DNA of 64,000 nt from contig CM119371.1 of the NCBI GenBank assembly GCA_051294905.1, forward strand, positions 15,812,001 through 15,876,000. The letters run 5' to 3'. This DNA is from Botryllus schlosseri (taxonomy: Eukaryota). A program made the translations under genes and the position numbers. Positions 3,419 through 64,000 of this stretch are shown one piece after another (the first letter of the stretch is position 1; each line of letters begins with the position of its first letter). The notes beneath the pieces are model-generated. The model saw only the letters and a program-made list of their open reading frames with translations. It searched no databases and had not been told where the DNA came from.

Positions 3419-3419
3419 A

Positions 3420-10400: not shown

Positions 10401-10441
10401 AATCAATTACATTACATTTGATAAAGTGTTGCAAATAACTT

Positions 10442-23835: not shown

Positions 23836-23969
23836 GATACAACGCTATAATACATAGTCCTATTGATGGTCAATCTACAATGATTTTTCATATTGCGTAG
23901 TAGTCAAACGGGAGATCATGCAACTATACAAATTATATTTTTCAGCAGACGAGGGAATATAATTAAACT

Positions 23970-37310: not shown

Positions 37311-38036
37311 ATCTTTCTCTCTTGATTAGCGATTTGGTTCGAAAACTGAAGTGGAGACTCGTCATCCGCCAGTCGTCGCCAGCTGGGCAGCTGAGCGCAT
37401 GCGGCTATACAAGTATACCATGGTAGAATGCTTGATAAAAGAAGGGCCTTCAGTGTGAGAAGGTGTGAATTTGTATCCTCAGGTCTGAGACCAGTATTGT
37501 TTGTTCGCTAGATACCATTCTGTGCTGGAATATTGTATAGTTAGTAGTAGAGTGAATCGCAATATTCTGTTATATACTTGCATAGCCTTAATACAAAGTC
37601 TATATACTCGAATAGTGGTATTGTGAGATGAATAGATCGGTATTTTCCACGGTTGGCCCGCTCTGTAAATAAATGAATTGAAATGTAATTTTGACAGCAC
37701 TTTCTGATTGGTAATTCTGCCCTCACGGCTTCACACGTTTTGATGGTGTTGTTGATGATGATGAGACAACCGCTCCATTTCATATGGAGTGGAGATGTAT
37801 CACAGGCGTGTAAATTGGTACTGTTAACGTATGCCGCATATTTAGCATTCGTAGCTTGGTGTATCAAAATATATTTACCGGTATGACATTGTAGGTATAG
37901 CCTAACTGGCACTTCTTCGATGGCAGTCAGACATCGAAAAGTGTTCACCATGATCACCGATGAATGTTTTCCATGAACACGAAAAAAAAATTATAAACGT
38001 CAAAATATATTTTTTTTTGTGCCTTTCGAAAGACGA

Positions 38037-38940
38037 ATGTTAGGGTTGGGGTGGGGGGTATTAGGGTGGGGGGAAAGGGGGATATTAGGGTTTTCGGAGG
38101 CGATATTAGTGTTAGGATTGGTGGATGGGGATATTAGGGTTGGCGGAGGGGATATTAGTGTTAGGATTGGTGGATATTAGTGTTAGGATTGGTGGATAGG
38201 GATATTAGGGTTGGGGTGGGGGGTATTAGGGTGGGGGAAAGGGCGATATTAGGGTTGGCGGAGGGGATATTAGTGTTAGGATTGGTGGATGGGGATATTA
38301 GGGTTGGCGGAGGGGATATTAGTGTTAGGATTGGTGGATAGTAATATTAGGGTTGGGGTGGGGGGTATTAGGGTGGGGGAAAGGGGGATATTAGGGTTGG
38401 CGGAGGGGATATTAGTGTTAGGATTGGTGGATGGGGATATTAGGGTTGGCGGAGGGGATATTAGTGTTAGGATTGGTGGATGGGGATATTAGGGTTGGCG
38501 GAGGGGACATTAGTGTTAGGATTGGTGGATGGGGATATTAGGGTTGGCGGAGGGGACATTAGTGTTAGGATTGGTGGATAGTAATATTAGGGTTGGGGGA
38601 GGGGATATTAGTGTTAGGATTGGTGGATAGTAATATTAGGGTTGGCGGAGGGGATATTAGTGTTAGGATTGGTGGATAGTAATATTAGGGTTGGGGTGGG
38701 GGGTATTAGGGTGGGGGAAAGGGGGATATTAGGGTTGGCGGAGGGGATATTAGTGTTAGGATTGGTGGATGGGGATATTAGGGTTGGCGGAGGGGATATT
38801 AGTGTTAGGATTGGTGGATGGGGATATTAGGGTTGGCGGAGGGGACATTAGTGTTAGGATTGGTGGATGGGGATATTAGGGTTGGCGGAGGGGACATTAG
38901 TGTTAGGATTGGTGGATAGTAATATTAGGGTTGGGGGAGG
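38037..38940 (+). repeat. G-rich minisatellite (~49-bp unit containing TTAGGG)
   Basis: Unit ggggatattagggttggcggaggggatattagtgttaggattggtggat plus variants; mirrored by a shorter C-rich array at ~63010-63530. Confidence 0.92.
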
Positions 38941-39075
38941 GGGAGATAGCGTAGTCGTAACGATAAGCGCCCACCAATCTGGCGGACCCCGTTCGATTCC
39001 CGTCGGAGGTTTATGTGGGCTCCTCTTCCCTCGCCGTTGCCGCTCTTACGGAGACAAAAAAGACCAACGAAAGAA
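38941..39075 (+). mobile_element. tRNA-like SINE head inside the left TIR
   Basis: gggagaTAGCGTAGTCGtaacg...cccGTTCGATTCCcgtcgg; the body resembles the SINE at 3290-3418. Confidence 0.6.
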
Positions 39076-40988
39076 AGCACTCACAAGGAATGGAAAGAAC
39101 TAGTAGAAAGGACCGCGGCTTCAATAAGATCAACATCGAAATGAACTGCGACATCGGGCACGGCTTCGATAAGATCAACATAGAAAAGAACTGCGACATC
39201 GGGCACTCTAGACCGAGGTGGAAATTAGATTAAAAGGATCGCAACTGCATGCGTGTCGTTCGACATCCTCCTATCTGCTCATTACATCGCATTTTGTCTT
39301 ATCGCATGTACATTGTGTGTGACTTGTTCAGATGAAACATATAACCCAACGATTAATAATATGATATTATTACTATTAGGGTTGAGGTGGGGAATGTTAG
39401 GGTCCATTCATTACATTCAGCACCCATTACCATCCGTTCAAAAGATACATATTTTCCAATTGCCAAGATAGAAAGTATCGAATCTTTCATTCGAGCACGG
39501 GGTTAGATCGTTCTAGTTCATTACAAAACTGATTCAAATATAAGCGAGTGATTAATATGATGCCTATTGAATCAATAGGTTGCGTCAATTCACACGGAGT
39601 CATCATTACAAACGATGGAAAAACATAAGCGGGTGAATTCAAGCCTGCAGGCTCGTGCCGCTAGGACATACTTTGCGATAGGTGATGCTGGAGCAAACTG
39701 ATGATAATCAGTATGTTGATATTTCATCCTTTCGAATACACGAAAAGATTGCGATTGAACGAAAAAATTGGAAGGTATTGAAACGATATTTAGTAGTCGT
39801 TGAAACCGGACATTCGGACACCACACTTCCTGTAGCCATAAGACAGTGTAAAGAGGCACTTATGTCGTTGTAGCCTTGTAGGATGGGCAGTTGGACACTG
39901 AATATAAAGTAACAGAAGTGATGGGATGATAGCCTAATGAAGTGGCATGTTTCGGAATGATGGGCCGATATATCAAATTGAGATTTGAATGTGGACGTTC
40001 TTGACGACTGTCTGGATGGCCTTCGAGGCTTTTAGCGATGTCTTTCCCAAACTTATTTCCACGGCGTATTTCAATATCGAATATATTTTACATATAGATA
40101 GAAAGTCTCGAATCGAGAGGTGAAGTCAATACACGCATTCATGGTTAACACGACCATATGGAATTAGAGATAACTGACCTACCGTATGTTAGTTAATTAT
40201 CTATAATGGAATCAAGATTATATAGGCTTGCATCGCTGGGATAGAGATTGACCTTAATAATGTTATAGTGGACCGGACTTTCTGCCAGCACGTGAACGAC
40301 CAACTGAGGCAAGGCGATATATACCCTTCGAAGAATGATGATCTTCATCGGAATCCATTGTGACACACAGAAAACGAATGTCATCAGAAAATTGGCACTA
40401 GCCAACCCAATATTGCATAATGACATATTCAAACTTATCTATAGTATACGTCCATAATATATTTAGGTCGATAGAACGTAATTGGGCTACCGCTACGGTC
40501 AATTCTAATGTCTATTGCGTGCTACACGATAAAGGCGCGGTATGTCTTGGTGAACGGGACTTTGGAATGTTCATTGCCAACCTAATAATATTGATTTTCT
40601 CGACGGCAAATTGAAAGTTCAAAATTATCTGGCTGGACGTCTCTGAACTACCAGTAGGCATAACTACTCTTCAAAATATTGTGAAGTATACACAGTAGAG
40701 ATCGTGTCGATTCCATACAGCAATTAACAATTTGCCAGTATACGCGTTGAAATTGCATGGCGATACCGAGTGACGTAATTCTCTTTAGATGGATTTCAGG
40801 TGCGATGTCAGGGTCACCAATATAGCAATCTGTCTTAGCAGCTGCGTTGACCTCCGGTTGACTCGGCATACGGGTCTCTCGATTTCGCAATACTCAACAT
40901 TTATTCAATGCCGTGAACCTATGACACCAGGTCTGACAATACACGAATCGTTATTCTGACTATACGTTCATCTACAAACCTATCATAT

Positions 40989-41324
40989 TGCGGTGAAAGG
41001 AGCTGTCTGTCCGATATTCTGCGATGGTATGTACCGCAAGTCCGTATGTTATGGATAGCGGCTTACAATATCCTTATCTGGCAGTAGCGGATACGAACGA
41101 CGTCCTGCGTGTAGCTCTTTGACTGGTAGTTCAATAGACGACAATTGCCTTTTCCATATGTATTGGACGGATGGTTACTTCAAGCAGTAGGTTATACGGC
41201 GTACGTTGAGTCTCATATCAAAAGGGACTAATATGCGATATGCGCTCGGTTATAACTATGCGATAAGTCACGTGATGTAGTATTTCTTCCTACAGATAGG
41301 AGAGAGGGGGCTAGAGCTCCCACA
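40989..41324 (-). repeat. 3' LTR
   Basis: tgcggtgaaagg...gagctcccaca; no difference from 45071-45406 found by eye. Confidence 0.93.
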
Positions 41325-43756
41325 CTGTCCCATCTAAAAGGGAATGATAGCGATAATCAAATCGTATAGGTTACTAAATGTAACAGGGGATGCAAGTACA
41401 AAATGAAATAATCGCAATACAGTAAATACATAATGTGCGGATTGATTGTAGCAGATGGTTATCATGTGAGGTCAAATCCCGTGGTCTGAGATACAATTTC
41501 ATATAACTATGCATGAGGATTGGAAAAGGCAACAAAAAAAATTTTTTTTGATGTTTTATTTAAATGAGAGAAGAAAAAGGTAAGGGCAAGGGAAGCGAGT
41601 GGCGGAGATCGACAAGGGATTAGAAGTTGCCGCCAACCGCTGTAATATAGGGCACTACCGCCGCACTTAATTCATAATCGACTGAGACGAATGGATAATT
41701 AGTGTGGGAAGGATGTGGTGACCCTATTTACGAACGAAAAATAGAGCAACCAGTTGTGTGTTATTGTGAACCACCAACGTTCTAATTTCCATAACCGCTG
41801 GGAGTTAATAATCGAATAAAGCTTAAGGGAGCGGCGGTAAGTGTTGATGCGATGGGAGAAAAATTGTAAAAAGCGATGGGAAATATCCAGGCAGAACAAA
41901 GACATGCTGCGAAATGGTTGCGAGAAACGTCTGTTAATCAAAATTCCATTCGAATGTGCCGCCATAATCAGTCGAGCACGCAAAATGTGCTTTCCACGTG
42001 GGATAGGCGAAAATAAAAATATCTCAACGTGGTGGGGTCGCGAGGATGCCGGGTTGTACCAATGTCAATGCTCATCGTAATATTTCATAACACCGCCGAT
42101 GGTGGGAACCTGCCTGCGGAAACTGCCCATTTGTGGCAGATGCCTTTTCACGACCCTCGATCGGAGGTGGTCGACTTTCGTGAAACGCGAAAACCGTCGC
42201 GGAAGCCGTAATAATCTTCTGGTACGAAACGCATTCGTAGCCAGCGCGCGATCGGCTATAGGACGCAATCGGTGTAGCGTTCCAATTCGAAGTGATGATG
42301 CAGTTTCTGGTATCGGCAGCAGGTGAAAGTTCGTATGAGCGTCTCCGGCATCCGGTACTATAGCGCGACTCTCGGTGGGGCGGCACGAATGTCGGGTACG
42401 TGTTTCTGGAATTGTAAGACAAGCCGGCAGCAGTCGCAAATTGGATACTAACAACAGGCGAGCAAAATTAAAATGTTAAACACACTGGTAGCAATCAAAC
42501 GTATACACAAAATTGCGAAATGCACATATGGCAGGCAGCGAAGCAGATTGCGGCTCAGCTCTGTAGGTGGAATCCTAGCACCGCTAGATGTTGCAATTAC
42601 TTCTACTTGTAGTAGTGACGTCATATACATGACGTAGAATGAAAATGAAAACCAAACGGGTCAACAAGGCATGTCGAAACACGTGCATTGTGCTGGCGAA
42701 CTAAATCGAGTGTCGATATCAAATCGCCATGTCGACGCGGGCTAATCAATAACTCGGTCCGCTAACGAATCGAAAGATAAGGAATAACAAATAAGTAATA
42801 ATCACAGCACGCACACCTAACATATCGCAAATGTAAACGCGCGCCCAGCTACTTTCGTGTGCTTCGAAGGCTGATTAATAATAATAATGGCGTTTCGACC
42901 GGTGGAATACGCCTTAATAACGGTGTGCTAGGTATAATTCGCCTAAACGCTGGATAATTATTTTATCCAAAAACCGTATGATAATGTCCGGTCAGTGGAT
43001 CATTTCGAGAAAATGGCGCACGGGCGAGACGCGAGTCGGCGGAACTCTACTTCTGCTTCGTTATGCAATCGTGAAAGTAAATAGTATGAGTTTAAACTGG
43101 GGGTTGCAAATCATAAATTCCATGCGCATTAGAATTGCTGAATCGCGCACCAGCAGTCCCCATATCTAAAAACGGTTTGGCGAGATATCAAAGCCAGTAC
43201 AAGGAAAATTACTTGGAAGCATAAGTTCCCCGTGCTCACGGCATTACATATACGACCCGGGAGCGAAAGCGAAGACCTGCAGACCCCGTACTTCAACCGT
43301 ACCCCAAATTCACAAGTTCCCCAAGTATAGCTGTAATGGGCATAGGTGATGTTAAGAGAATCGTGAGTATACAAAAATGTTTCACGGATATCTGTGACCA
43401 GATATCAGTAGCCATGCACTAAAATTGCATGGCGACCATATCTGCACAATGAAAAATCAAGCAAGGTAGTCTAATAATGAATATAGACTTAGAACAAAAG
43501 ATGAAAGAAAACCGAGACCACGCTATTGTCATCAAGACAATGGCGAAGTCATTGAGGCAAAATTGATATAAAATGTGCAGCTAGTTTTCTGCGAAAATGA
43601 ATGACATATCATAATCTTGCAAATTCCGAGGCGCCGTCAAGCGTCGTCCGGAAGTCGAAGTTTTGTGTACAACAGTCATCCTTAGGTTTTTTTGTTTAAG
43701 TAACACGTTTAGTACAATAGCGTAAGGCGAATCGACAGATTAAACGATCCAACAAA

Positions 43757-44248
43757 TTACGCGTGATGTGTTAACTGTATATCAAATTCAAATTTATGTA
43801 GAGGCGGTCTGTCGAGTTCAGAATCAAAAAGTGATTGGTAGCGTGATAGCAGTGCTGCGATGCTGTCATTTTTACAATATAATGTCACGTTATATACCAA
43901 ACCTGCCTTCTGAACGTCCGAAACGGCTGAGATCGTTATTTGATTGTGCTCATCCCTAATCGTGCGCTCGCGCATGTTTACAGTCCAACCAAAATGGCGG
44001 AGGAAGTCCGCGCCAATTATGCAATAGGGCAGCGATGCGATCTCAAAACTGAACGTATATTCGACCGAAGAACCGAATGACAGCGTCAATTGCGATTGGC
44101 CGTAGCCAAGAAGTATCGTGTCATTTGGACAACGGAACGCGACCGTCGGACCACCCAATGAATCCGTCAGGGCTTTTATGAAGCTATTTTCACTTCCCAA
44201 GTCAATTAAAAATACATATTTGCTTCCGTAGTCAAAAACAAACAGCAA
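43757..44248 (-). pseudogene. Retropepsin-like aspartic protease remnant
   Basis: LFVFD....VFLIDLGSENSFI (FLIDTG-like site with T>L) and IIGADFLRHFG motif; the ORF stops where RT would begin. Confidence 0.78.
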
Positions 44249-44334
44249 ATAGGAGGCATTAGGTTAGGTTAGGCATTAGTGTTGTAAAGTATTATCGGCG
44301 GCTTTAGCGTCTGAAATCAATGTGGCCATACGTA

Positions 44335-44802
44335 CTAGTTAATGAAGTATAAAGCGGGCGCGTTTCGATCAAAAGATGCATCTTTAACCGAACTAATAGC
44401 GCGTCCAGCTTCCTCAATACACGTGTCACGATATTCCTTTGACAAGCCGAATGAGCGAATTTGCCGGTTCTCGCGTGGGCGAGAAGCGTATTGATGGTGT
44501 GGTTCAACAACTAAATTCATGCGAACCAGATCACGGGTAGGCGGTGCATTCAGGGGAATCTCACTACTCGCGCCCCGGGATACCTCATCATTATCCTCGG
44601 CGTCTGTGTGAGTGACAGGCCCGTTAATTTCGGCAGTTATGACATCGACATTTTGATTTTCACGAAGTAGGCCTACGCTGACTTGAACATTATCATCGGA
44701 TAGGCCGGATCCAGTAGCAGGTTCATCCCTGCGGTTTCTAAGATCGTAATTATGCAATTTACTTTGAGCTTCACTTGCGTCTGTTTCGCCGCTGGTTGCC
44801 AT
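44335..44802 (-). pseudogene. gag-like ORF (N-terminal part)
   Basis: First ORF after the PBS (MATSGETDASE...YDLRNRR...); the call rests mainly on position. Confidence 0.5.
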
Positions 44803-45070
44803 ATTAATATATATCGTAATAAATGTACGAAAATGGTAATAGGCAAAAGCGCGGAATAAATAACACGGAAAATTAAACTGAAAGGTATGTGCGAACTGCT
44901 GACCGACAAACAATTCCAGAAATGGTATAGAAGGGTAAATACCGGATGTGTCTTGCAGTCCTGGTGTTCTCAGTGAGTTTCCGTATCGTCGCAGGTGAGT
45001 ATTAATGGTCCGTTGATGGAGTAGCGAAGAGTCTTTTCGTTTGAATCAAGTCATTCACTCGTGGGCATCA

Positions 45071-45406
45071 TGCGGTGAAAGGAGCTGTCTGTCCGATATT
45101 CTGCGATGGTATGTACCGCAAGTCCGTATGTTATGGATAGCGGCTTACAATATCCTTATCTGGCAGTAGCGGATACGAACGACGTCCTGCGTGTAGCTCT
45201 TTGACTGGTAGTTCAATAGACGACAATTGCCTTTTCCATATGTATTGGACGGATGGTTACTTCAAGCAGTAGGTTATACGGCGTACGTTGAGTCTCATAT
45301 CAAAAGGGACTAATATGCGATATGCGCTCGGTTATAACTATGCGATAAGTCACGTGATGTAGTATTTCTTCCTACAGATAGGAGAGAGGGGGCTAGAGCT
45401 CCCACA
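45071..45406 (-). repeat. 5' LTR
   Basis: Direct repeat of 40989-41324, followed on + by the TSD atat. Confidence 0.93.
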
Positions 45407-46390: not shown

Positions 46391-46853
46391 ATGATGGCGG
46401 GGGCGAATGTATATCCGAGTCTTTCTAAAGTAAATTGGAGGGAGCTGACTTTGGCGACAATCGACAAGGCAAGCGCAATTGCTTGGTGCCGACAGCACGG
46501 ACTGCTTGCGAAACAAATGCGATGCCCCGAATGCAATGGCGATATGGCGGAATACGAGCGGAGCACAAAAATCGGATTCCGTTGGCAATGTCGAGACCGC
46601 GACTGCAAAACGACATTGCAAATTGTGAAAAATAGTTTTTTCGATTTCAACTTCAAACCACCATCGAATTGCTGTATTTATACTCGTATGAAATGGCGTC
46701 GTACAAAAATGTTAGACGGGAGTGCGGGATCGCTAGCGATGAGACCATCTGTAACTATCGCAACTACGTCCGAGACATATATGCCGAGTATTTCGTGGAC
46801 AATCCACTTCAATTGGGCGGCCCTGGAAGAGTCGTTGAAATCGACGAGTCGGC
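46391..46853 (+). pseudogene. Merlin/IS1595 transposase, N-terminal half
   Basis: Zn-ribbon (HGLL...RCPEC...WQCRDRDC...KNSFF), frameshift at ~46645, then ...LQLGGPGRVVEIDES containing the first catalytic Asp; cut by the insertion at 46854. Confidence 0.9.
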
Positions 46854-46889
46854 AGTAGTTAGTATGATCGCTCGTGAGGTGCGTGGGGT

Positions 46890-47170
46890 TCTTATGGCGG
46901 GGTCGCATGCTAACGCGAAAACCGGGGGTGGCATGCTAACGTTTTCGTCTTATGGCGGGGTGGCATGCTAACGTTTTCGTCTTATGGCGGGGGTGGCATG
47001 CTAACGTTTTCGTCTTATGGCGGGGGTGGCATGCTAACGTTTTCGTCTTATGGCGGGGGTGACATGCTAACGTTTTCGTCTTATGGATGCGGTCGCATGA
47101 TAACGCGAAACTCGTGGTGGCATGCTAATGTTTTTTGGTATACGTGCGGCGACATGCTAACGACGATAAA
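46890..47170 (+). repeat. 33-bp subterminal tandem repeat
   Basis: (tcttatggcgggggtggcatgctaacgttttcg)n, decaying inward to ~47750; mirrored at ~60270-60552. Confidence 0.9.
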
Positions 47171-50100
47171 TGTGTCTGTCATGTATTCTTACGGGATCTG
47201 TGGCGACTCGCCATGTGTTCTTGCGGTCGTGATTCGTACTTTCAGGCATCTCTCGCGCGGTGTTGAATATGTATCAAGTAAATAGTCATGTGAATGAATC
47301 TTTGTTAATGTGTATATCGTTATTCTTATGGATGCGGCGATGATTCGTACTTTCAGGCATCTCTCGCGCGGTGTTGAATATGTACGAGTCACCAACAATA
47401 ACCGCACAAACGGAAACGTGGCTTGTTGTGAGGATTAAGCAAATGACCTGCGCGCTGAATTGTTTCACAGCCAACCGCGGTGGTCGTGACTCGCCTTTTT
47501 TACTATAGGTGGTGACGGTGATTTGCCTGTCGTGTATTCTTACGGGGTCTGTGGTGACTCGCCATGTGTTCTTATGGATGCGGTCGCATGCGGCTATTGC
47601 GTCTTATGGCGGGGGTGGTGAGCGGGTATTGATGCTAACACGAAACCCGGGGTGGCGAGCGGCACTTATTTCTTATGGCGGCGGGTCTTATTTCTTATGG
47701 GTGCGGTCGTGATTCGTACTTTCGGTATAGACTGCGGGCGGCATGTCGTACTTTCAGCAAAAAAGGTGTGAAATAGTTTGCCAAGTCTAGGAATCACTTG
47801 CAAGGTAATATTTTGGTATTTAGTTTACCACAGAGCCGGCGTAGACGGTGATTCGAATTTCAACAATAACAACGGTCACAAATTAACACTTCAAATAGCT
47901 GTGAAATAGTTTGCAAAACCCCGCGATCACTGACAAGATAATATCTCGGTCATAACCATCTTTCACGACTTGGTGTCATAACCATACCGATCGCTCACGC
48001 GGTGAAATTTTAGTAATCAGTTTGTCACAGAACTTGATATCGCTGGTAAGATTTAACAAGTAACGAATAACAGACCGCGGTAACTTGAATAGCGACAAAT
48101 TGTCACTTATTTCCGCTCTAACTCTAATCCTTTGTGAAGTGAACGCTTATTCAAAAGGGTGTGATATAATTTTAAAATCCAACGACCACTCACCGGATAA
48201 TACTTCAGACATAGCAATTCCGCATACCCGCCTACAAGGTAATATTTCGGTAATTAGTTTGTCACAGAACCGTCGCAGGCGGTGGTTGGAAAACCGACAA
48301 TTTGTCACTCGCCCGCGATCGCTATATGTTTCACGCCTCCAGAATAGTGGCTGACTTTAGTTGCGTGATAAGATCCATGAAAATATTCAATCAATGTGTT
48401 AGTTTATCAACTTGAAATGAAACTCACTACACAAATCAAGTCGATTCGTATCTGAATGTTTTAAATCGGTACAACTCTAATCCTTTGACAAATCCCTTAC
48501 CGCGTTTTTGTTGAATCGAACGTAACCCGACTATTACTGACGCCGACTTTCAGCCGCATCGAATTATTCGCACATTCCGCGCCACTGTTTTCACACTTAT
48601 AGAATCAATACCAACTATAACTCTACAAGAATCAAGAATCACAAGTATGTGCATTACACAGTTATTGTCTTTATTAACTTGAAATCAAACACTTAACAAA
48701 AACACACAACTAATCATTTGGCAACTCTAGCATTACCAAAAAATTCCAGTATTGTTGATTGAAAATCCTTGAGTCATTATTATCAAAAATGTTATAGTAC
48801 CGCATCGGAATCCATTCGCGGGATGTACTAAAGTTAAATCCAGATAATCCAAAATGAAATATTTGGACTTTGACATTGCGTGAATTGAAATAGGCTTGAC
48901 AAACATGACTACCAACTTTCACCCAGTCACATTTCAAGATCATACTTTGAAACAATCCTTGAAACTTACAACTCTATTCACGACTGAGTTTTCCGTTTAT
49001 CAAATAGAGTTTCAGTAAATACTATCGCGATATTTTAATGTGTTACTACACACAATAGAATCAATCAATGAAATGGCACCTGTTGTAAATATTTCTAACT
49101 TGACAACCACTTGTGCGTACCGCGATCGACTTGCGACGCGATGAGTTAAATCGGAATATTTCTATCTATTTGTCGAAACCTTGAACAAACTATCAGGTTA
49201 TTTTTTGTTATAATCGAGTGAACGGAAATAGTATTACGTCTCAACATTTTAGCATCTTCCCATAAACAAAAGAGTAAAATACAAAAAACCTTGTCAAGTC
49301 AATCCGTTTGTAACTTACCCAACCAAAGCAAAAAGTATCCTTATGAAAAGTAGACAAGACTACGCCAGTAATCACTACAATCCAAAATCCATAACAAGTT
49401 CGGTTGTATTCATATCCCTACGACGCGTCTTTTGTTTTTCAACTGTAAAAGTCGTTACTATTTTGCAAGACAAAGTAATTACTACTTGATATATTTTATA
49501 AACCAAAGTAAATACTACTCGGTGTGTGGTTTGAGATTAACGTATTACATTTGAGTATACCGGATTTGAATACCTGACCAACGTAGTTGAGAATTCATTT
49601 CTTACAATCAAACGCCGGTTTTACATTGAAAGGTATCATACTGTAAACATAAGGATTGACACATTAATTTGATATATGAGATTTTGTATTGCTCGACCAC
49701 GAATTGATTATTAAATTATTCACGATAATTAGACCCGATGTTGTGGTAAAGGTTATTAGAAAATATCACTTTTGGCATCGAGTACCAGTCGAAGTTGGTG
49801 AACAATAACACCGAAAATGATAAATGCGTTTCGTGCTACTATTGATACAAGTTCATTTCTATCAGGTGAAATAAACGCCATCACAAAACTCAGAGCATGC
49901 AAAGGTCTTGATTGATATGAATTTCGATTTGTGTCTTATGATTTTAGAAATATTATGATTCGTTAAACCAAAGTCGTATGTCCGATTATTAATTGATTGG
50001 AAACTTGATCACGTACCTCGATCATTACAGAAGATTATAACCCCATTGTCCGACAATCTTTTACAAAAGGATCGAAACCAAGTAACCCAAAGTCGTTGCC

Positions 50101-52380: not shown

Positions 52381-54979
52381 GTCATTTACCTGAGTAAAAA
52401 TATCATTTTCCTTTGGGGATCTGGCGTTTACCCAGTGTAACAATACATTTTCTCTTGGTCATCTAGCTTTTCCTAGAGTAACAAAACCATTTTCATTTTG
52501 AAATCTGACAACCACACCGACAATTTGATATTTTTGTATTTTCTTACAGCGAACAGCGACAAAATATACACCAACAACGACTCCGATACATTTGTCTAAT
52601 CAAATATTCACTTGTGTTGGTGCATCCCATCAAAATCGTCGGTTACCCACATGCAATGCGCTCTTGTACACAGAAAGGCATGTTTTGGAAAATTGGACAA
52701 TAGGCTTCGATAGTTCTGTGATGTCCGGGTTCGTGCTTTGGATTTTCCAGAGTCAAAATGTCTGAATAAAACACCTCCTTGACGATGGTTGGTATGTGGA
52801 TAACGGTGTTCGGAAAACGGTTGGATTTATGTCACCCATCGCGATAACAATTCCAGGTCGAGTTTTCCCCCGCGCGTTTACTATATTGTGTCTTTATTGG
52901 TCAATGTATGTCTCGACATTCAGTTTGAAATCGGAAACCCTGATAAGTATGTAACCGGATCCGGATATCAACTCTGAATCGATAAACCAATGAACAATAT
53001 TCAAAGTAAACATGTTACACCCTGCGTTCCCACGAAAAAATACCATCCAGACATACGTCGCGCTTGTTTGCCCACACCAGTATACGCGCAAATGGAGGTG
53101 TGTGACATTGCATGCAATGCGTTGGTATACAAACATCGATCCACAGACATTATCATAGTCGGTAGTTTTGATGTAGATCGAATGTCATCCGATAACAATA
53201 CCAATAAGCCACATTGCAATGACTCTGAGTCAATCTGAAGCATGACATACAGACACACAAACACGGAACCGTAACATGGGTTATTCACATGGCGGTGAAA
53301 GTGAACTGTACAGTACATACCAATATTGTGATCACAGTCAAATATGCGAACCGTGTACAATCATATACCCAGGTTTTTGTTGGATATGTACAAATCCGAT
53401 AAATCGATACATTTCTGTTCCTTCTACGTCAATAATACAAGCACCATTCAAATGCATCACTCGAATGTGAGGTTCGTCGGGTGTAAAATCCATGTCAAAT
53501 AACACCAAAGTGTGCCTTCCGTGTTTTATCATTTCCACCGACGCTTCTTGTCTGTGTCGTAACACTATGGTGCGGGGAGTTGAAAAACGGCGGATTGTGA
53601 AACGGATTGACATGATCAACAGAATCGACGTCACTAGCCTTGTGACGATGTCTTTTCAAAATGATACCGATCTCTTGTGGCGATGACCGTTTCGAAATGT
53701 CACCGGACGAACTGAATCCTTACGATGATGTGTTTTATGATTGCGTGTGAAATCGCGAGGTAGTGTTCTATTGTGGTGTACGATTGCAGTCTTCACAGAA
53801 ACACACCTTATTGGATCACAGTATCAGTCCGAGATTTGCATAATCACTGTTCACGATATTTGTCTGGAGTCGTTATGTGGGAGTAGCGACATCCATGCAT
53901 CGTGACTGAAAGACTGATCGCAATCATTTCGAGCACCACTTCGATAGTATCACCATGGTCAAACGCTGCAGCAGAAAACTTCGGTGTGCTCAACACATTG
54001 ATAGATGTATCCAATTGGTCTGGGTGGTCTGTCCGGAGATAGGGCCATGACTATCTTGTAATGTTACAACACGATAACACCATCGAGTAAATCAGTGAAC
54101 GGTGTCGAAATATCGATGTAATAGCGCGGACTCAGAGTCATTGCAATGTGGCTTATTGGTATTGTTATCGGATGACATTCGATCTACATCAAAACTACCG
54201 ACTATGATAATGTCTGTGGATCGATGTTTGTATACCAACGCATTGCATGCAATGTCACACACCTCCATTTGCGCGTATACTGGTGTGGGCAAACAAGCGC
54301 GACGTATGTCTGGATGGTATTTTTTCGTGGGAACGCAGGGTGTAACATGTTTACTTTGAATATTGTTCATTGGTTTATCGATTCAGAGTTGATATCCGGA
54401 TCCGGTTACATACTTATCAGGGTTTCCGATTTCAAACTGAATGTCGAGACATACATTGACCAATAAAGACACAATATAGTAAACGCGCGGGGGAAAACTC
54501 GACCTGGAATTGTTATCGCGATGGGTGACATAAATCCAACCGTTTTCCGAACACCGTTATCCACATACCAACCATCGTCAAGGAGGTGTTTTATTCAGAC
54601 ATTTTGACTCTGGAAAATCCAAAGCACGAACCCGGACATCACAGAACTATCGAAGCCTATTGTCCAATTTTCCAAAACATGCCTTTCTGTGTACAAGAGC
54701 GCATTGCATGTGGGTAACCGACGATTTTGATGGGATGCACCAACACAAGTGAATATTTGATTAGACAAATGTATCGGAGTCGTTGTTGGTGTATATTTTG
54801 TCGCTGTTCGCTGTAAGAAAATACAAAAATATCAAATTGTCGGTGTGGTTGTCAGATTTCAAAATGAAAATGGTTTTGTTACTCTAGGAAAAGCTAGATG
54901 ACCAAGAGAAAATGTATTGTTACACTGGGTAAACGCCAGATCCCCAAAGGAAAATGATATTTTTACTCAGGTAAATGAC

Positions 54980-55597
54980 AGATCGCCAAGTGAAAAAGGT
55001 TTGTAACCCAGGGAAAAACATATTTCCAAGCGAAAAAGGTTTGTTACCCAGGGAAAAAATATATTTCCAAGTGAAAAAGGTTTGTTACCCAGGAAAAAAT
55101 ATATTTGCAAGTTAAAAAGGTTTGTTGTTCAGGGAAAAAGGTTTGTTACCCGGGGAAAAAATATATTTTCAAGTGAAAAAGGTTTGTTACCCAGAGAAAA
55201 AATATATTTCCAAGTGAAAAAGGTTTGTTACTCAGAGAAAAAATATATTTCCAAGTGAAAAAGGTTTATTACCAAGAGAAAAAATATATTTCCAAGTGAA
55301 AAAGGTTTGTTACTCAGAGAAAAAATATATTTCCAAGTGAAAAAGGTTTATTACCAAGAGAAAAAATATATTTCCAAGTGAAAAAGGTTTGTTACTCAGA
55401 GAAAAAATATATTTCCAAGTGAAAAAGGTTTATTACCAAGAGAAAAAATAGATTTCCAAGTGAAAAAGGTTTGTTACCAAGAGAAAAAATATATTTCCAA
55501 ATGAAAAAGGTTTGTTATCCAGGGCAAAAATAGATTTCCAAGTGAAAAGGGGTTTGTTATTCAGACCAAAAATAGATTTCCAAGTGAAAAGGGGATT
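54980..55597 (-). repeat. 41-bp minisatellite, right arm (two extra units)
   Basis: Mirror-coordinate sum shifts from 107360 to 107442 across the array, a difference of 82 bp. Confidence 0.9.
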
Positions 55598-58500
55598 GTT
55601 ACACAGGGTAAACGATAAATCTCCAAAGGACAATGGTATTTTAGTTAGGTAACGGTGGACCTCCAAGTGAAAATGATAATTTTACACAGGTAAACGTCAG
55701 TTGTCCAAACCAGAATGATATTTTTACTTGGGTAGGTATCTTGTGTTCAACGCCGGTAGTGTGATTGGTCTTGTTAAACGTAGTTACCGAGTTGTACAAT
55801 TATGAAGGGGCGGAAAATGAAATTGCTATTATGATCGTCAGAAGATTGTTGTATGTAGATTTGACAGTAACCCTATCATTCGCATATGACAAACACAATC
55901 ATGGCCATTAACTAACTTGCTCGGTCTAGATCAATGCAAAAGAGATGATTCGTTTTTTGAAACCGTAGCGAAGACCACATGTAAATCGATGAGATAGACT
56001 TCTATCTCCTTACAGTCAGTCGTGTCGTGTCCATTTTAATACGGGGCCCACAGGTATGACATGCACACACTAACGCCGTGAACAGAAATCGATGATTTTG
56101 ATTAATAAAAATATTTCTTGACTGCATCGGAATGTCTATGTTGTAGAAAGTAAATACTTTTATGGTGTTGTGTGTTTAATGAAAGCGATTGGTTACAAGT
56201 ATGTGTTGGAGAAAGAAAATTTATTTTTCTGTATGTGACGAAATGAAAATAGATTCGTGGTTTTAATTGGATTGCGCTGTTTATTGTATGTTTCAACAGT
56301 TAGACTTGACACTGAACAACAATTCGACCCGCAAAGCATATTCGTTGTATGATTTGTCACTGGTGTGTAAAGGGTTAGGAATATTTTGAATGATAATATC
56401 TACTAGCTGTTTTGTTGTGAGAGCGATCATGTGATGACTCAGCACTTTTCGTTAGCAAAGTAGATTGATCTATGTGAAAGATGTAAGGACCGTGGCTAGA
56501 AACATATGTACTTTGTTGTTGGGGAACTGCTATGGTGTTGACATAACCCTCTGGAAGTGAGTATGCTTTTCTTTCACGAAAGTTTACGTGGCTCCGTTGT
56601 AATAAATTTGTGTTGACTAAACTCGAATGGATACTGCAATTGTGCTGGACTTACACATGGTATTCGCATACTGTACACATACAAACTTTTGTGTAAACAA
56701 CTCTGATGTTTCTGTTAGTACTAGTTCTGTGTTAAACTATTTGATTATTAAGATACATGAACACCCATTCAGACAATAAAGGTCTTGTGATATCGAAACT
56801 GTTTGTAGAGTCTAACCAACCATTCTTTAGTTTCGTAATGTGAGAATATCGAGTAAAGTTAATTACTTAGTGCGATGTTAATATCCTTCGTACTTTTGTA
56901 AGAGTTGTGGGATAACATACAAAGTAACTAATTGACACAAATAAAATGGCGATATTGTGAAGATGATGCCGCAACAAGTGATATTTTGTATCGGGTGTTT
57001 GTACTTTAGGAATAGCGGAGTGTGCGATATTTTGGATATGTGTGCACGGTTGTTAACTACGGTTGTTCTTGGGTCTTGCGTTGAGTAAATCATAACTATG
57101 TCTAGAATTCAAACACATCCAAGTAAGTTCTTTAGTGACTATGATTACATCTACTTTGACGAGAGGAAATGGGAAAATTAAAATGGATACTACTGACGAA
57201 CAAAAAGTGCAAAATGGTTTTATCAGATTTAGGTATAGGATATCTTTTCGATTTCTTTACCAGAGTGTGTTTTACAAATATCTCTAGTACACCAACGTAT
57301 AGGGTACAATTATCAAACGTCGTACAAATTGTTTATGCGACGGCAACGACTTTGGGTTACTTGGTTTCGATCCTTTTGTAAAAGATTGTCGGACAATGGG
57401 GTTATAATCTTCTGTAATGATCGAGGTACGTGATCAAGTTTCCAATCAATTAATAATCGGACATACGACTTTGGTTTAACGAATCATAATATTTCTAAAA
57501 TCATAAGACACAAATCGAAATTCATATCAATCAAGACCTTTGCATGCTCTGAGTTTTGTGATGGCGTTTATTTCACCTGATAGAAATGAACTTGTATCAA
57601 TAGTAGCACGAAACGCATTTATCATTTTCGGTGTTATTGTTCACCAACTTCGACTGGTACTCGATGCCAAAAGTGATATTTTCTAATAACCTTTACCACA
57701 ACATCGGGTCTAATTATCGTGAATAATTTAATAATCAATTCGTGGTCGAGCAATACAAAATCTCATATATCAAATTAATGTGTCAATCCTTATGTTTACA
57801 GTATGATACCTTTCAATGTAAAACCGGCGTTTGATTGTAAGAAATGAATTCTCAACTACGTTGGTCAGGCATTCAAATCCGGTATACTCAAATGTAATAC
57901 GTTAATCTCAAACCACACACCGAGTAGTATTTACTTTGGTTTATAAAATATATCAAGTAGTAATTACTTTGTCTTGCAAAATAGTAACGACTTTTACAGT
58001 TGAAAAACAAAAGACGCGTCGTAGGGATATGAATACAACCGAACTTGTTATGGATTTTGGATTGTAGTGATTACTGGCGTAGTCTTGTCTACTTTTCATA
58101 AGGATACTTTTTGCTTTGGTTGGGTAAGTTACAAACGGATTGACTTGACAAGGTTTTTTGTATTTTACTCTTTTGTTTATGGGAAGATGCTAAAATGTTG
58201 AGACGTAATACTATTTCCGTTCACTCGATTATAACAAAAAATAACCTGATAGTTTGTTCAAGGTTTCGACAAATAGATAGAAATATTCCGATTTAACTCA
58301 TCGCGTCGCAAGTCGATCGCGGTACGCACAAGTGGTTGTCAAGTTAGAAATATTTACAACAGGTGCCATTTCATTGATTGATTCTATTGTGTGTAGTAAC
58401 ACATTAAAATATCGCGATAGTATTTACTGAAACTCTATTTGATAAACGGAAAACTCAGTCGTGAATAGAGTTGTAAGTTTCAAGGATTGTTTCAAAGTAT

Positions 58501-60594
58501 GATCTTGAAATGTGACTGGGTGAAAGTTGGTAGTCATGTTTGTCAAGCCTATTTCAATTCACGCAATGTCAAAGTCCAAATATTTCATTTTGGATTATCT
58601 GGATTTAACTTTAGTACATCCCGCGAATGGATTCCGATGCGGTACTATAACATTTTTGATAATAATGACTCAAGGATTTTCAATCAACAATACTGGAATT
58701 TTTTGGTAATGCTAGAGTTGCCAAATGATTAGTTGTGTGTTTTTGTTAAGTGTTTGATTTCAAGTTAATAAAGACAATAACTGTGTAATGCACATACTTG
58801 TGATTCTTGATTCTTGTAGAGTTATAGTTGGTATTGATTCTATAAGTGTGAAAACAGTGGCGCGGAATGTGCGAATAATTCGATGCGGCTGAAAGTCGGC
58901 GTCAGTAATAGTCGGGTTACGTTCGATTCAACAAAAACGCGGTAAGGGATTTGTCAAAGGATTAGAGTTGTACCGATTTAAAACATTCAGATACGAATCG
59001 ACTTGATTTGTGTAGTGAGTTTCATTTCAAGTTGATAAACTAACACATTGATTGAATATTTTCATGGATCTTATCACGCAACTAAAGTCAGCCACTATTC
59101 TGGAGGCGTGAAACATATAGCGATCGCGGGCGAGTGACAAATTGTCGGTTTTCCAACCACCGCCTGCGACGGTTCTGTGACAAACTAATTACCGAAATAT
59201 TACCTTGTAGGCGGGTATGCGGAATTGCTATGTCTGAAGTATTATCCGGTGAGTGGTCGTTGGATTTTAAAATTATATCACACCCTTTTGAATAAGCGTT
59301 CACTTCACAAAGGATTAGAGTTAGAGCGGAAATAAGTGACAATTTGTCGCTATTCAAGTTACCGCGGTCTGTTATTCGTTACTTGTTAAATCTTACCAGC
59401 GATATCAAGTTCTGTGACAAACTGATTACTAAAATTTCACCGCGTGAGCGATCGGTATGGTTATGACACCAAGTCGTGAAAGATGGTTATGACCGAGATA
59501 TTATCTTGTCAGTGATCGCGGGGTTTTGCAAACTATTTCACAGCTATTTGAAGTGTTAATTTGTGACCGTTGTTATTGTTGAAATTCGAATCACCGTCTA
59601 CGCCGGCTCTGTGGTAAACTAAATACCAAAATATTACCTTGCAAGTGATTCCTAGACTTGGCAAACTATTTCACACCTTTTTTGCTGAAAGTACGACATG
59701 CCGCCCGCAGTCTATACCGAAAGTACGAATCACGACCGCACCCATAAGAAATAAGACCCGCCGCCATAAGAAATAAGTGCCGCTCGCCACCCCGGGTTTC
59801 GTGTTAGCATCAATACCCGCTCACCACCCCCGCCATAAGACGCAATAGCCGCATGCGACCGCATCCATAAGAACACATGGCGAGTCACCACAGACCCCGT
59901 AAGAATACACGACAGGCAAATCACCGTCACCACCTATAGTAAAAAAGGCGAGTCACGACCACCGCGGTTGGCTGTGAAACAATTCAGCGCGCAGGTCATT
60001 TGCTTAATCCTCACAACAAGCCACGTTTCCGTTTGTGCGGTTATTGTTGGTGACTCGTACATATTCAACACCGCGCGAGAGATGCCTGAAAGTACGAATC
60101 ATCGCCGCATCCATAAGAATAACGATATACACATTAACAAAGATTCATTCACATGACTATTTACTTGATACATATTCAACACCGCGCGAGAGATGCCTGA
60201 AAGTACGAATCACGACCGCAAGAACACATGGCGAGTCGCCACAGATCCCGTAAGAATACATGACAGACACATTTATCGTCGTTAGCATGTCGCCGCACGT
60301 ATACCAAAAAACATTAGCATGCCACCACGAGTTTCGCGTTATCATGCGACCGCATCCATAAGACGAAAACGTTAGCATGTCACCCCCGCCATAAGACGAA
60401 AACGTTAGCATGCCACCCCCGCCATAAGACGAAAACGTTAGCATGCCACCCCCGCCATAAGACGAAAACGTTAGCATGCCACCCCGCCATAAGACGAAAA
60501 CGTTAGCATGCCACCCCCGGTTTTCGCGTTAGCATGCGACCCCGCCATAAGAACCCCACGCACCTCACGAGCGATCATACTAACTACTGTCGGC

Positions 60595-61039
60595 CTTTGT
60601 CCGCAGAAAACATAATGTTGGAAGAACGGTCAAGACGCAGTGGGTGTTCGGGGGCATCGACGTTGAATCGAAAGAGGGATTCCTGGTGGAAGTCGAGAGA
60701 CGAGATGCTGGTACTCTTTTGCCCATCATACAACATTATATCCTGCCCGGAACGACTGTGATATCAGATCTCTGGGCAGCGTACAATACGGTGAGCAATT
60801 TGGGCTACCAGCATCTCACAGTAAACCACAGATTAAACTTTGTGGACCCGATCTCCCACGCAACGACACATCACGTTGAATCAATGTGGGCCCGAGCGAA
60901 ACAGAGAAATAAGCGGGAGTGCGGGACTCATCGTACTCTCCTGGATACGTACTTATTTGAATTCATGTGGCGCCTCAAATTCGGCGACGATCCATTTCAG
61001 AATTTGATAAATCAGATTCGCACTCGCTATCCTGTTTGA
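60595..61039 (+). pseudogene. Merlin/IS1595 transposase, C-terminal half
   Basis: FVRRKHNVGR..QWVFGG...RDAGTLLPIIQHYILPGTTVISDLWAAY...HLTVNH..FVDP....HVESMW...YLFEFMWR; joins in frame to EIDES-A when the insert and one TSD are removed. Confidence 0.93.
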
Positions 61040-61709
61040 ATTTATACTTATTTACATCCATGATTTACACTGTATTTTTTCGTTGGCTTTGCTGCATTTA
61101 TTATATTTCATTCGTTAACAAAACAATGCGTGAATTGTACCGTCTCCAGTGCTCCTCAGACAGACATGTGCATTGTGCATGGTGCAATGTGCATGCAGTG
61201 ACATATAGTGGTATATTGATATCAGAGCAGGGGCTACCAACTCGAAAAGAGTAAAGGGCCACTTTTTCAACTTGGTAATCGCCGCCGGCAGCATCATGTC
61301 AATTTCAAGGAATAGGTTAGCTAAGGTTCTACGGTACAGCATCACTCGGGTACCAAATCGTTTCTCCACACCCTTCCTACGGGCGGAAATGAGTGAAACA
61401 CACCACTAATGATGCATCAGTACGGTGTTAGTGCGTTCTGCTTCACCCTAAGAAGTCAAAAAGTTAGTACACACAAGCAGAAACAACTTAGTACACACGC
61501 AGAATCAACTTGTCATGAAAATACATACCGCATAGGCTATTTATCGTGTATCATACAATACTCATTAGGATTGATTGTGAATGCTGCATGGCATCAACTG
61601 TATTTGTACTGCGTCTGCTTCACAAGTTGTGTAGGAGTATATTTACCAATAGTTTGAAAGAATAGTTTTGGCTACTGGTCATTCAACGACGTCTATCCCG
61701 ATACTTTTC

Positions 61710-63660
61710 AACTTTCAATTTGCCGTCGAGAAAATCGAAATTATTAAGTCCCGTTCGCCAAGACATTGTTATCTATAATTCCATATGCTCGTGTTCTTCC
61801 ATGAATGCGTGCATTGACTTCACCTGTCGATTCAAGACTTCCTATCGATATGTGGAATATATTCGATATTGAAATACGCCGTGGAAATAAGTTTGGGAAA
61901 GACATCGCTAAAAGCCTCGAAGGCCATCCCGACAGTCGTCAAGAACGTCCACATTCAAATCTCAATTTGATATATCGGCCCATCATTCCGAAACATGCCA
62001 CTTCATTAGGCTATCATCCCATCACTTCTGTTACTTTATATTCAGTGTCCAACTGCCCATCCTACAAGGCTACAACGACATAAGTGCCTCTTTACACTGT
62101 CTTATGGCTACAGGAAGTGTGGTGTCCGAATGTCCGGTTTCAACGACTACTAAATATCGTTTCAATACCTTCCAGTTTTTTCGTTCAATCGCAATCTTTT
62201 CGTGTATTCGAAAGGATGAAATATCAACATACTGATTATCATCAGTTTGCTCCAGCATCACCTATCGCAAAGTATGTCCTAGCGGCACGAGCCTGCAGGC
62301 TTGAATTCACCCGCTTATGTTTTTCCATCGTTTGTAATGATGACTCCGCGTGAATTGACGTAACCTATTGATTCAATAGGCATCATATTAATCACTCGCT
62401 TATATTTGAATCAGTTTTGTAATGAACTAGAACGATCTAACCCCGTGCTCGAATGAAAGATTCGATACTTTCTGTCTTGGCAATTGGAAAATATGTATCT
62501 TTTGAACGGATGGTAATGGGTGCTGAATGTAATGAATGGACCCTAACATTCCCCACCTCAACCCTAATAGTAATAATATCATATTATTAATCGTTGGGTT
62601 ATATGTTTCATCTGAACAAGTCACACACAATGTACATGCGATAAGACAAAATGCGATGTAATGAGCAGATAGGAGGATGTCGAACGACACGCATGCAGTT
62701 GCGATCCTTTTAATCTAATTTCCACCTCGGTCTAGACTCTAGAGTGCCCGATGTCGCAGTTCTTTTCTATGTTGATCTTATCGAAGCCGTGCCCGATGTC
62801 GCAGTTCATTTCGATGTTGATCTTATTGAAGCCGCGGTCCTTTCTACTAGTTCTTTCCATTCCTTGTGAGTGCTTTCTTTCGTTGGTCTTTTTTGTCTCC
62901 GTAAGAGCGGCAACGGCGAGGGAAGAGGAGCCCACATAAACCTCCGACGGGAATCGAACCGGGTCCGCCAGATTGGTGGGCGCTTATCGTTACGACTACG
63001 CTATCTCCCCCTCCCCCAACCCTAATATTACTATCCACCAATCCTAACACTAATGTCCCCTCCGCCAACCCTAATATCCCCATCCACCAATCCTAACACT
63101 AATGTCCCCTCCGCCAACCCTAATATCCCCATCCACCAATCCTAACACTAATATCCCCTCCGCCAACCCTAATATCCCCATCCACCAATCCTAACACTAA
63201 TATCCCCTCCGCCAACCCTAATATCCCCATCCACCAATCCTAACACTAATATCCCCTCCGCCAACCCTAATATCCCCATCCACCAATCCTAACACTAATA
63301 TCCCCTCCGCCAACCCTAATATCGCCCTTTCCCCCACCCTAATACCCCCCACCCCAACCCTAATATCCCTATCCACCAATCCTAACACTAATATCCACCA
63401 ATCCTAACACTAATATCCCCTCCGCCAACCCTAATATCCCCATCCACCAATCCTAACACTAATATCGCCTCCGAAAACCCTAATATCCCCCTTTCCCCCC
63501 ACCCTAATACCCCCCACCCCAACCCTAACATTCGTCTTTCGAAAGGCACAAAAAAAAATATATTTTGACGTTTATAATTTTTTTTTCGTGTTCATGGAAA
63601 ACATTCATCGGTGATCATGGTGAACACTTTTCGATGTCTGACTGCCATCGAAGAAGTGCC
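61710..63660 (-). repeat. Merlin right TIR (~1.95 kb)
   Basis: Reverse complement of the left TIR; includes the SINE head (62941-63010, with canonical GGTTCGATTCC on minus) and the C-rich satellite (~63010-63530). Confidence 0.88.
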
Positions 63661-64000
63661 GCCTAACTGCGTGTATGGAATCGGTGTCCTGTACTCATAC
63701 TATGTTTTATTTTTTATTAAATAACTTCAACTTGGAAAATCGTCGCTGCTCACCTGATATATCAGGCAAAACGTACCGAGATTCCAGTAGGGCTCAAGTG
63801 ATGTGGCTTCTGTCAGCCCCAGTTATTGATCCCGGGATCGTACAATATTTATGAAATTTACACCCGTAAGAAGATGATCCGGTACTACGAATATGAGCAG
63901 CTTTCAAAAATATACACTGGTACCGTGATACAGGTCTTATTTCGCCAAGTTGTTATGACCGTTCTGTGGTAAAGTTGATGCAAACATACTCTGAATCTAC

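What the first reader, a model, noticed from the sequence alone, without database searches (positions are those of the whole stretch)
37908..63660. Merlin with composite kilobase-scale TIRs: 25.8-kb Russian doll, a palindrome within a palindrome
The 8-bp TSD, GG...CC ends and transposase define a Merlin whose TIRs (~2.7 and ~1.95 kb) are much longer than the tens to hundreds of bp I know for the family. They are assembled from a satellite, a SINE head, a 45-bp duplication and unique DNA. The ends are intact, so the unit could in principle move its LTR and Polinton cargo if transposase is supplied in trans.
Basis: partly seen in the sequence, partly recalled or inferred. Interest (0 to 1): 0.72.

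Follow-up and report, generated by a model that had tools for sequence, protein, structure and literature searches.

The report
Long-armed Merlin transposon with nested insertions
This is a real, recently inserted copy of a common cut-and-paste jumping gene with unusually long mirror-image ends, disabled and swollen to 26 kb by two other mobile elements that landed inside it; similar long-armed elements are already catalogued, so it is a neat example and not a new kind.

Summary
Observation confirmed. 37908-63660 has GG..CC ends, an 8-bp target duplication and a Merlin/IS1595-type transposase. Public runs show a 1,000-2,000-fold depth step at the terminus, many different flanks, and an empty allele, so these are the ends of a high-copy family. 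Without cargo the element is 7.6 kb. Two insertions make up the rest: a 4.4-kb LTR element and a 13.7-kb gene-less Polinton-type palindrome that splits the transposase, which also has a frameshift. Corrections: the family-wide terminal core seems to be only about 110-130 bp; the SINE-like repeat is whole, not a head, and contains the 45-bp duplication; arm identity drops sharply at 40088, suggesting arm-to-arm copying. Novelty is low: Repbase Merlin-1_DR and Merlin-N5_DR have 1,000-bp TIRs and Merlin-2_DR has mirrored satellite arms of at least 1.6 kb (PMC8101967, S1 Table). Galileo shows the same TIR growth. Movement with cargo is untested. The scan already noted, on other DNA of this genome, a satellite-armed Merlin and many such Polinton palindromes.

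The parts
37900..37907 (.). left 8-bp target-site duplication
   Evidence: identical to 63661-63668; single copy in the empty allele
37908..38037 (+). terminal domain of left TIR (GG start), shared by a high-copy family
   Evidence: 130/130 identical to right end; depth step and varied flanks
38038..38945 (+). G-rich 49-bp minisatellite with TTAGGG motifs, 15 units (9 in right arm)
   Evidence: TRF; unit count
38940..39370 (+). whole SINE-like dispersed repeat inside the arm, with A/B-box-like motifs (consensus recalled); limits approximate
   Evidence: three diverged copies elsewhere in the window, scores 166, 129.5, 90 against shuffle maxima 57, 66, 54; no ARAGORN or Rfam tRNA hit
39116..39206 (+). 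45-bp tandem duplication, inside the SINE-like repeat, present in both arms
   Evidence: TRF; single in the window's other copies
39373..39402 (+). further satellite-like unit after the SINE-like repeat (the repeat interrupts the array)
   Evidence: 83% match to 38339-38374, E 1e-4; sequence printed
39403..40174 (+). non-repetitive part of left arm; identity to right arm falls sharply at 40088
   Evidence: 5 mismatches in 881 bp (39207-40087) against 7 in 57 bp (40088-40144), Fisher p 1.3e-6
40175..40540 (.). 366-bp piece present only in the left arm
   Evidence: arm alignment
40541..40790 (+). old, diverged inner part of left arm (about 75-82% alike to 61767-61574)
   Evidence: BLAST and alignment
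40989..45406 (-). LTR element, 4.4 kb, 4-bp duplication ATAT, no RT or integrase detected
   Evidence: LTR identity and flanks; no Pfam family in six frames
40989..41324 (-). 3' LTR, 336 bp, preceded on the minus strand by a purine-rich tract
43757..44260 (-). retroviral-type aspartic protease-like ORF
   Evidence: ESM Atlas feature hits 0.96 to PF00077 clusters; no Pfam hit
44335..45045 (-). 236-codon open frame upstream of the protease; gag-like by position only
   Evidence: ORF list; no Pfam hit
45071..45406 (-). 5' LTR, 336 bp, identical to the other
46391..46853 (+). Merlin transposase, N-terminal part up to the first catalytic Asp block; frameshift near 46642
   Evidence: tblastn with 8 intact homologues; alignment
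46854..60588 (.). gene-less Polinton/Maverick-type palindrome, 13,735 bp, 6-bp duplication, inserted in the transposase
   Evidence: no Pfam family in six frames of one arm plus spacer; end motif and 6-bp duplication as in PMC8097293
53232..54128 (.). 897-bp unique spacer of the inner palindrome
60590..61039 (+). Merlin transposase, C-terminal half with second Asp and Glu
   Evidence: PF12762 E 1.1e-15; 78% identical to P0002
61574..63660 (-). right arm (old inner patch, non-repetitive part, SINE-like repeat, satellite 63005-63530, terminal domain ending CC)
63661..63668 (.). right 8-bp target-site duplication

Best explanation
A defective copy of a Merlin cut-and-paste DNA transposon, 7.6 kb without cargo, with foldback-type arms. 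SHOWN: ends, target duplication, transposase class, membership of a high-copy family, empty allele, two nested insertions, two separate lesions in the transposase. INFERRED: (1) the transposase binds a short terminal domain of about 110-130 bp, perhaps helped by the satellite as extra binding sites, as proposed for Galileo; (2) the kilobase arms arose because one arm is copied onto the other during repair or conversion, so a SINE-like repeat that entered the satellite once now stands in both arms, and the outer 2.2 kb are almost identical while the inner part has drifted 12-25%; (3) this copy landed recently and was probably moved in trans from an already frameshifted donor; (4) the LTR element and the Polinton-type palindrome are independent insertions, most simply at this site. 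The 25.8-kb size is then an accident of nesting, not a property of the family.
For: Ends and duplication. Depth over the terminal 128 bp is 1,603-1,778 times the flank in run X10 and 990-2,020 times in X12, depending on the baseline; the step starts in the bin holding 37908 (the tool warns that summed depth is not a copy number). Loose ends before 37907/37908 in all 4 runs laid, 26 contigs in 7 rows, with consensus agreement 0.46-0.74 in the 5 multi-contig rows, so the flanks differ. One X2 contig crosses the left flank and goes on with letters matching 63670-63699 at 27 of 30 places (compared by eye): the empty allele. The window's own letters at 37959 and 37990 carry only 4-9% of family depth, and five of the seven listed loose ends after 38011-38026 lead into other G-rich sequence (two less clearly), so the shared core is short. 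No internal ends: none of 5 candidates with a near-duplication starts with GG; the best inverted match around the gene is 16/20, with 0.44 expected by chance. D, D and E of the catalytic triad are kept. Identity step at 40088. Precedents.
Against: No other full copy could be read, so the link between these arms and this transposase rests on one locus (no genome; searches found nothing). An 8-bp duplication alone is not specific to Merlin (hAT and P elements also make one; recalled). Only 761 of 25,753 bases were laid on reads, in 4 of 24 listed runs, and the tool showed 19 of 68 loose-end rows and 32 of 642 pieces. The empty allele with printed letters rests on one contig of depth 5.6. No intact transposase of this family was found (best 78%). 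The tRNA origin of the SINE-like repeat was not detected by ARAGORN or Rfam. Arm-to-arm copying is inferred from one arm pair; the 0.11% against 0.57% difference between the two outer zones is not significant (p 0.12).
Confidence: 0.82

Rival explanations
1. The 25.8-kb unit, or a form with one of the two inserts, transposed as a whole: the cargo was already aboard when the Merlin landed here, moved by transposase in trans. This keeps the Merlin anatomy of the best explanation and changes only the order of events.
For: Ends are intact and identical. In run X10 two contigs match the left flank with 0 differences over 378 and 159 letters at full depth, and one runs 71 letters past 37908 into sequence that is not the TIR (letters not printed; read as a probably homozygous empty site), whereas the X12 haplotype differs at 38 of about 634 letters. 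The landing is therefore very recent, which leaves little time for a frameshift and two insertions in place. Unchecked scan notes report 18-60-kb Merlin-ended elements in this genome.
Against: The inserts are equally young: LTRs 336/336 identical, palindrome arms 2 substitutions. The palindrome family is said to have hundreds of copies (unchecked), so a hit in place is plausible. Natural DNA transposition is reported to fall off above about 6 kb of cargo (PMC6431247, passage). X10 may be the sample the window came from. No second copy with the same junctions was seen, though none could be looked for.
Confidence: 0.2
2. The long arms belong to a separate non-autonomous foldback family that also makes 8-bp duplications and has picked up an end-less Merlin transposase fragment as passive cargo.
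For: The family of ends is far more abundant than this subfamily, and the arm-transposase link is seen at one locus only.
Against: GG..CC ends with an 8-bp duplication are the Merlin signature (PMC8101967, passage); the gene is full length apart from its two lesions; no relic Merlin ends flank it; Merlin families with such arms exist.
Confidence: 0.08
3. Assembly artefact: fold-back or collapsed reads made the palindromes.
For: The arms are nearly identical, and polishing can homogenise repeats.
Against: Each of the three nested units has its own exact target duplication; removing the palindrome restores the conserved D-E-S-A-F run of the transposase; arms differ in satellite number and by a 366-bp piece; an empty allele exists.
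Confidence: 0.02

Closest known systems
Merlin-2_DR, Merlin-1_DR, Merlin-N5_DR (Danio rerio; Repbase, as tabulated in PMC8101967 S1 Table, part 1 of 2 read)
   Same: Merlin elements with kilobase arms and satellites in them. Merlin-1_DR and Merlin-N5_DR are listed with 1,000-bp TIRs. Merlin-2_DR has 79-bp arrays of 12.5 and 9.7 units at mirror positions, implying arms of at least 1.6-1.8 kb in a 13.7-kb element (my arithmetic on the table; its TIR size is given as NA).
   Different: Arms here are somewhat longer (1.9-2.9 kb), include a whole SINE-like repeat on both sides, and the copy holds two nested elements. The Repbase sequences themselves were not seen.
Galileo (P superfamily, Drosophila mojavensis; PMC3573991, passages and section 7 read)
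   Same: Long internally repetitive TIRs (18-1,250 bp) that grow by tandem-repeat expansion and by recruiting neighbouring sequence; repeat number differs between the two arms; the authors conclude long TIRs are a convergent trait of several superfamilies.
   Different: Different transposase superfamily; the passages read report recruitment of the element's own internal DNA, not of a SINE; arms are shorter.
Mavericks/Polintons (PMC8097293, passages read), for the inner palindrome
   Same: (AGT)2..(ACT)2 end motif, 6-bp target duplication, length in the 12.7-24.6-kb range.
   Different: No core gene detected; arms of 6.4 kb against 46-1,447 bp in intact vertebrate elements. The scan has noted this palindrome family many times in this genome.
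Non-autonomous LTR retroelements of gypsy type (class recalled, not read here), for the 4.4-kb insert
   Same: TG..CA LTRs, 4-bp duplication, purine tract, protease-like ORF.
   Different: No RT or integrase found; superfamily not tested.

Membership tests
Merlin superfamily | DDE_Tnp_IS1595 transposase with D, D, E triad | tested here: met
   PF12762 E 1.1e-15, 58.4 bits over cut-off 27; triad kept in alignment with 13 homologues
Merlin superfamily | TIRs with terminal 5'-GG | tested here: met
   feature as stated in PMC8101967
Merlin superfamily | 8- or 9-bp target-site duplication | tested here: met
   8-bp duplication and empty allele
Merlin superfamily | TIR length 24-462 bp in the first description | tested here: not met
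   Arms are 1.9-2.9 kb. Not treated as defining: Repbase Merlins with 1,000-bp TIRs are listed, and the family-wide core here is about 110-130 bp
Merlin superfamily | multiple insertion sites with the same ends | tested here: met
   depth step and 26 contigs with other flanks in 4 of 4 runs
Merlin superfamily | other copies enclose the same transposase between these arms | not testable with these tools
   no genome held; empty
autonomous Merlin | intact transposase reading frame | tested here: not met
   frameshift near 46642 and 13.7-kb insertion after 46853
Polinton/Maverick (inner element) | (AGT)2 end motif and 6-bp duplication | tested here: met
   motif from PMC8097293
Polinton/Maverick (inner element) | pPolB, integrase, ATPase, protease and capsid genes | tested here: not met
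   0 Pfam families in 6 of 6 frames of 46854-54128; works like a non-autonomous derivative, not filed as an autonomous member
LTR retrotransposon (4.4-kb insert) | two LTRs, TG..CA, short duplication | tested here: met
LTR retrotransposon (4.4-kb insert) | RT, RNase H, integrase | tested here: not met
   0 Pfam families in 6 of 6 frames; only a protease-like ORF
tRNA-derived SINE (arm repeat) | tRNA-like head | tested here: inconclusive
   A/B-box-like motifs by eye (consensus recalled); ARAGORN 0 and no Rfam tRNA match
tRNA-derived SINE (arm repeat) | dispersed repeat of a few hundred bases | tested here: met
   3 other copies in the window, above 100 shuffles each

The most novel reading that the evidence does not exclude
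This Merlin family acts as a natural large-cargo vector: it moved as a 12-26-kb unit with an LTR retroelement and a Polinton satellite aboard, and its arms fix captured DNA on both sides by arm-to-arm copying. The copy would then be a living first step toward the Merlin-ended, retrovirus-like giants that the scan has noted (unchecked) elsewhere in this genome.
Probability: 0.15. Interest if true: 0.62.

Novelty: new member of a known kind. Interest (0 to 1): 0.27.

Why it matters
As it stands it is a clean teaching case: three nested mobile elements, each with its own footprint, and an arm pair with a sharp identity boundary and a repeat copied into both arms, which is the trace expected if long inverted repeats grow by copying one arm onto the other. 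It modestly extends the arm length on record in the table I read for Merlin. It would matter more if the cargo junctions recur at other loci, since that would show a Merlin transposase moving 12-26 kb in nature and offer a route to transposon-retroelement hybrids.

Tried and rejected
Exact search of JGI metagenome contigs with the terminal 29 bases: 0. Related-locus search with the C-terminal half: 73 pattern matches, 0 confirmed. Scan look-ups by sequence for the terminus, the right part and the protein: nothing; near this place: nothing. Protein searches: best 78% among 84 longer hits and 74% among 22 near-length hits, so no same-family transposase; P0001 is not in the collection. Run search: 20 of 24 listed runs, 10 studies, hold 70-91% of the words of 60590-63000; no RNA holder listed, which says nothing on expression. 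Runs X2 and X14 hold 91% and 83% of those words while covering little or none of the single-copy flank; this hints that the interior is multi-copy, but a hole in cover is no evidence, so it is not counted. Internal Merlin ends: rejected. Pfam on 24 read-through frames of the inserts, left arm and upstream region: 0 families in 24. Rfam: only chance-level matches. The 366-bp left-only piece has no convincing duplication (4-5-bp matches only). Literature: 'Merlin' + 'long terminal inverted repeats' + 'SINE' gave 0 papers; four wordings of non-autonomous Polinton/Maverick gave 1 paper, listing only; some searches were seen as listings apart from the papers cited; PMC3310237 abstract and outline only, not used. 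The library lacks most subscription papers, and Feschotte 2004 was not read.
Full report
Observation. The unit 37908-63660 (25,753 bp) starts with GG, ends with CC and is flanked by an identical 8-mer; that exact 8-mer has a chance of 1.3e-5 at a given place. The two arms align as 432/432 and 484/485 identical on either side of a satellite-number difference, then a 7-bp indel, 926/938 to 40144, 26/30 to 40174, a 366-bp piece in the left arm only, and an inner patch about 75-82% alike that reaches 40790 and 61574. Each arm is, from the outside in: a 130-bp terminal domain, a G-rich 49-bp satellite (15 units left, 9 right), a SINE-like repeat, one more satellite-like unit, and non-repetitive DNA.

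The nested elements. An LTR element lies at 40989-45406 on the minus strand: 336-bp LTRs, 336/336 identical, TG..CA, 4-bp duplication. It has a protease-like ORF (Atlas feature score 0.96 to retroviral-protease clusters; no Pfam hit) and no detectable RT or integrase (0 families in 6 of 6 frames). A 13,735-bp palindrome lies at 46854-60588: arms of 6,378 and 6,460 bp with 2 substitutions and an 82-bp satellite difference, an 897-bp spacer, AGTAGT ends and a 6-bp duplication. End motif and duplication size match Mavericks/Polintons (PMC8097293, passages); no Pfam family was found in 6 of 6 frames of one arm plus spacer. Scan notes describe hundreds of such palindromes in this genome (copy numbers not checked by me). 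Without the two inserts the outer element is 7,590 bp.

The transposase. The C-terminal half at 60590-61039 is PF12762 (E 1.1e-15) and 78% identical to its best database relative. The N-terminal part at 46391-46853 aligns to the same proteins in two frames, with a frameshift and a few missing residues near 46642. The palindrome interrupts the conserved run right after the first catalytic aspartate; D, D and E are all kept. The copy is dead twice over.

Are these the true ends? A search for alternative ends around the gene found 5 candidates with a near-duplication, none starting GG, and a best inverted match of 16/20 where 0.44 are expected by chance. I laid 4 of 24 listed public runs on 37275-38035, that is 633 bases of flank and the first 128 of the arm. 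Summed depth rises from 88-94 to 150,000-167,000 in X10 and from 65 to 92,000-130,000 in X12, starting in the bin that holds 37908: 990- to 2,020-fold. The tool warns that this is not a copy number, but it does not fit a rare sequence. In all 4 runs contigs enter the terminus from other flanks (26 contigs in 7 of the 19 rows shown, of 68). In X10 a full-depth contig matches the flank without a difference and runs 71 letters past 37908 into non-TIR sequence, whose letters were not printed; I read it as a second empty allele. The X12 haplotype differs from the window at 38 of about 634 letters, so a flank match without a difference in 537 letters makes the landing recent, unless X10 is the window's own sample, which I cannot tell. 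The window's letters at 37959 and 37990 carry 4-9% of family depth, and other members leave the alignment at 38011-38026, five of seven listed rows into G-rich sequence. So the wide family shares a core of about 110-130 bp, within the ordinary Merlin range, and this copy belongs to a minority subfamily. What other copies hold inside could not be seen.

How the arms were built (inferred). The SINE-like piece is not just a head. About 330-430 bp align to three diverged copies elsewhere in the window (scores 166, 129.5 and 90 against shuffle maxima of 57, 66 and 54), and the 45-bp duplication lies inside it. Its tRNA origin rests on box-like motifs seen by eye; ARAGORN and Rfam found nothing. It interrupts the satellite at the same place in both arms. 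A retroposed repeat enters once, so one arm was copied from the other afterwards. Identity between arms also drops abruptly: 5 mismatches in 881 bp, then 7 in 57 bp from 40088 (Fisher p 1.3e-6; the boundary was chosen after seeing the data). This is what a copying or conversion tract over an older inverted repeat would leave. The same growth of TIRs by tandem repeats and recruitment of adjacent DNA is described for Galileo (PMC3573991, passages and section 7).

Comparison with what is known. The first description gave Merlin TIRs of 24-462 bp, GG ends and 8-9-bp duplications (as summarised in PMC8101967, passages). The same paper's S1 Table (part 1 of 2 read) lists Merlin-1_DR and Merlin-N5_DR with 1,000-bp TIRs, the latter with mirrored 113-bp arrays, and Merlin-2_DR with 79-bp arrays of 12.5 and 9.7 units at mirror positions, which implies arms of at least 1.6-1.8 kb. 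I was led to that table by scan note e1-7786570, on another satellite-armed Merlin in this genome, and checked it myself. The layout here is therefore known; the arms are somewhat longer and carry a SINE-like repeat on both sides. One search for Merlin with long TIRs and SINE found no paper, in a library that lacks most subscription journals.

Cargo. Whether the 25.8-kb unit moved as a whole is open. For: intact ends, a recent landing, and a frameshift that was probably inherited from a donor moved in trans. Against: both inserts are as young as the landing, the palindrome family appears very abundant, transposition efficiency is said to drop above about 6 kb of cargo (PMC6431247, passage), and no intact same-family transposase turned up. 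I put it at about 0.2. Unchecked scan notes on 18-60-kb Merlin-ended retrovirus-like elements in this genome make the idea worth one junction count, but look-ups by sequence showed no link between them and this copy.

Verdict. A real, recent, defective Merlin copy with foldback arms and two nested insertions: new member of a known kind, interest 0.27.

Noticed in passing
window 2803-22160, minus strand: Tandem cluster of single-frame BTB-BACK-Kelch genes, about 80% alike (ORFs 7937-9574, 13786-14799, 15507-17120, 20410-22062; some broken), with further similar stretches at 2803-4137 and 10425-11736.
   Followed up: no
window 26446-27702 +: Reverse-transcriptase ORF, PF00078 E 9e-25, probably a LINE fragment.
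   Followed up: no
window 28949-31702: 2.75-kb element with 263-bp inverted ends, 96% alike; no duplication seen at these limits.
   Followed up: no
window 23969-24834 and 36655-37250: Two smaller inverted-repeat elements (arms about 270 and 76 bp); the first overlaps a frame with a weak GIY-YIG match, E 0.03.
   Followed up: no
window 40175-40540: The left-arm-only piece begins with a small hairpin, and 35 bp near its end match 61540-61574 in inverted orientation (83%), so the inner arm region was rearranged, not simply interrupted.
   Followed up: partly
flanks of other copies, table 7: Six of the seven listed loose ends before 37907/37908 finish in A/T-rich runs, hinting at an A/T-rich target preference that this copy's duplication does not follow.
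   Followed up: no
window 38990: The only substitution between the outer arm zones falls in the B-box-like motif of the SINE-like repeat; the right arm keeps the consensus letter (consensus recalled).
   Followed up: no
window 38038-38945: The arm satellite holds 23 TTAGGG hexamers in 908 bp, against about 0.8 per kb for the window on both strands: telomere-like motifs in a transposon arm.
   Followed up: no
window 37275-37908: Haplotypes differ by about 6% plus many gaps in run X12: a highly polymorphic species, so polymorphic insertions need not be young by that fact alone.
   Followed up: partly
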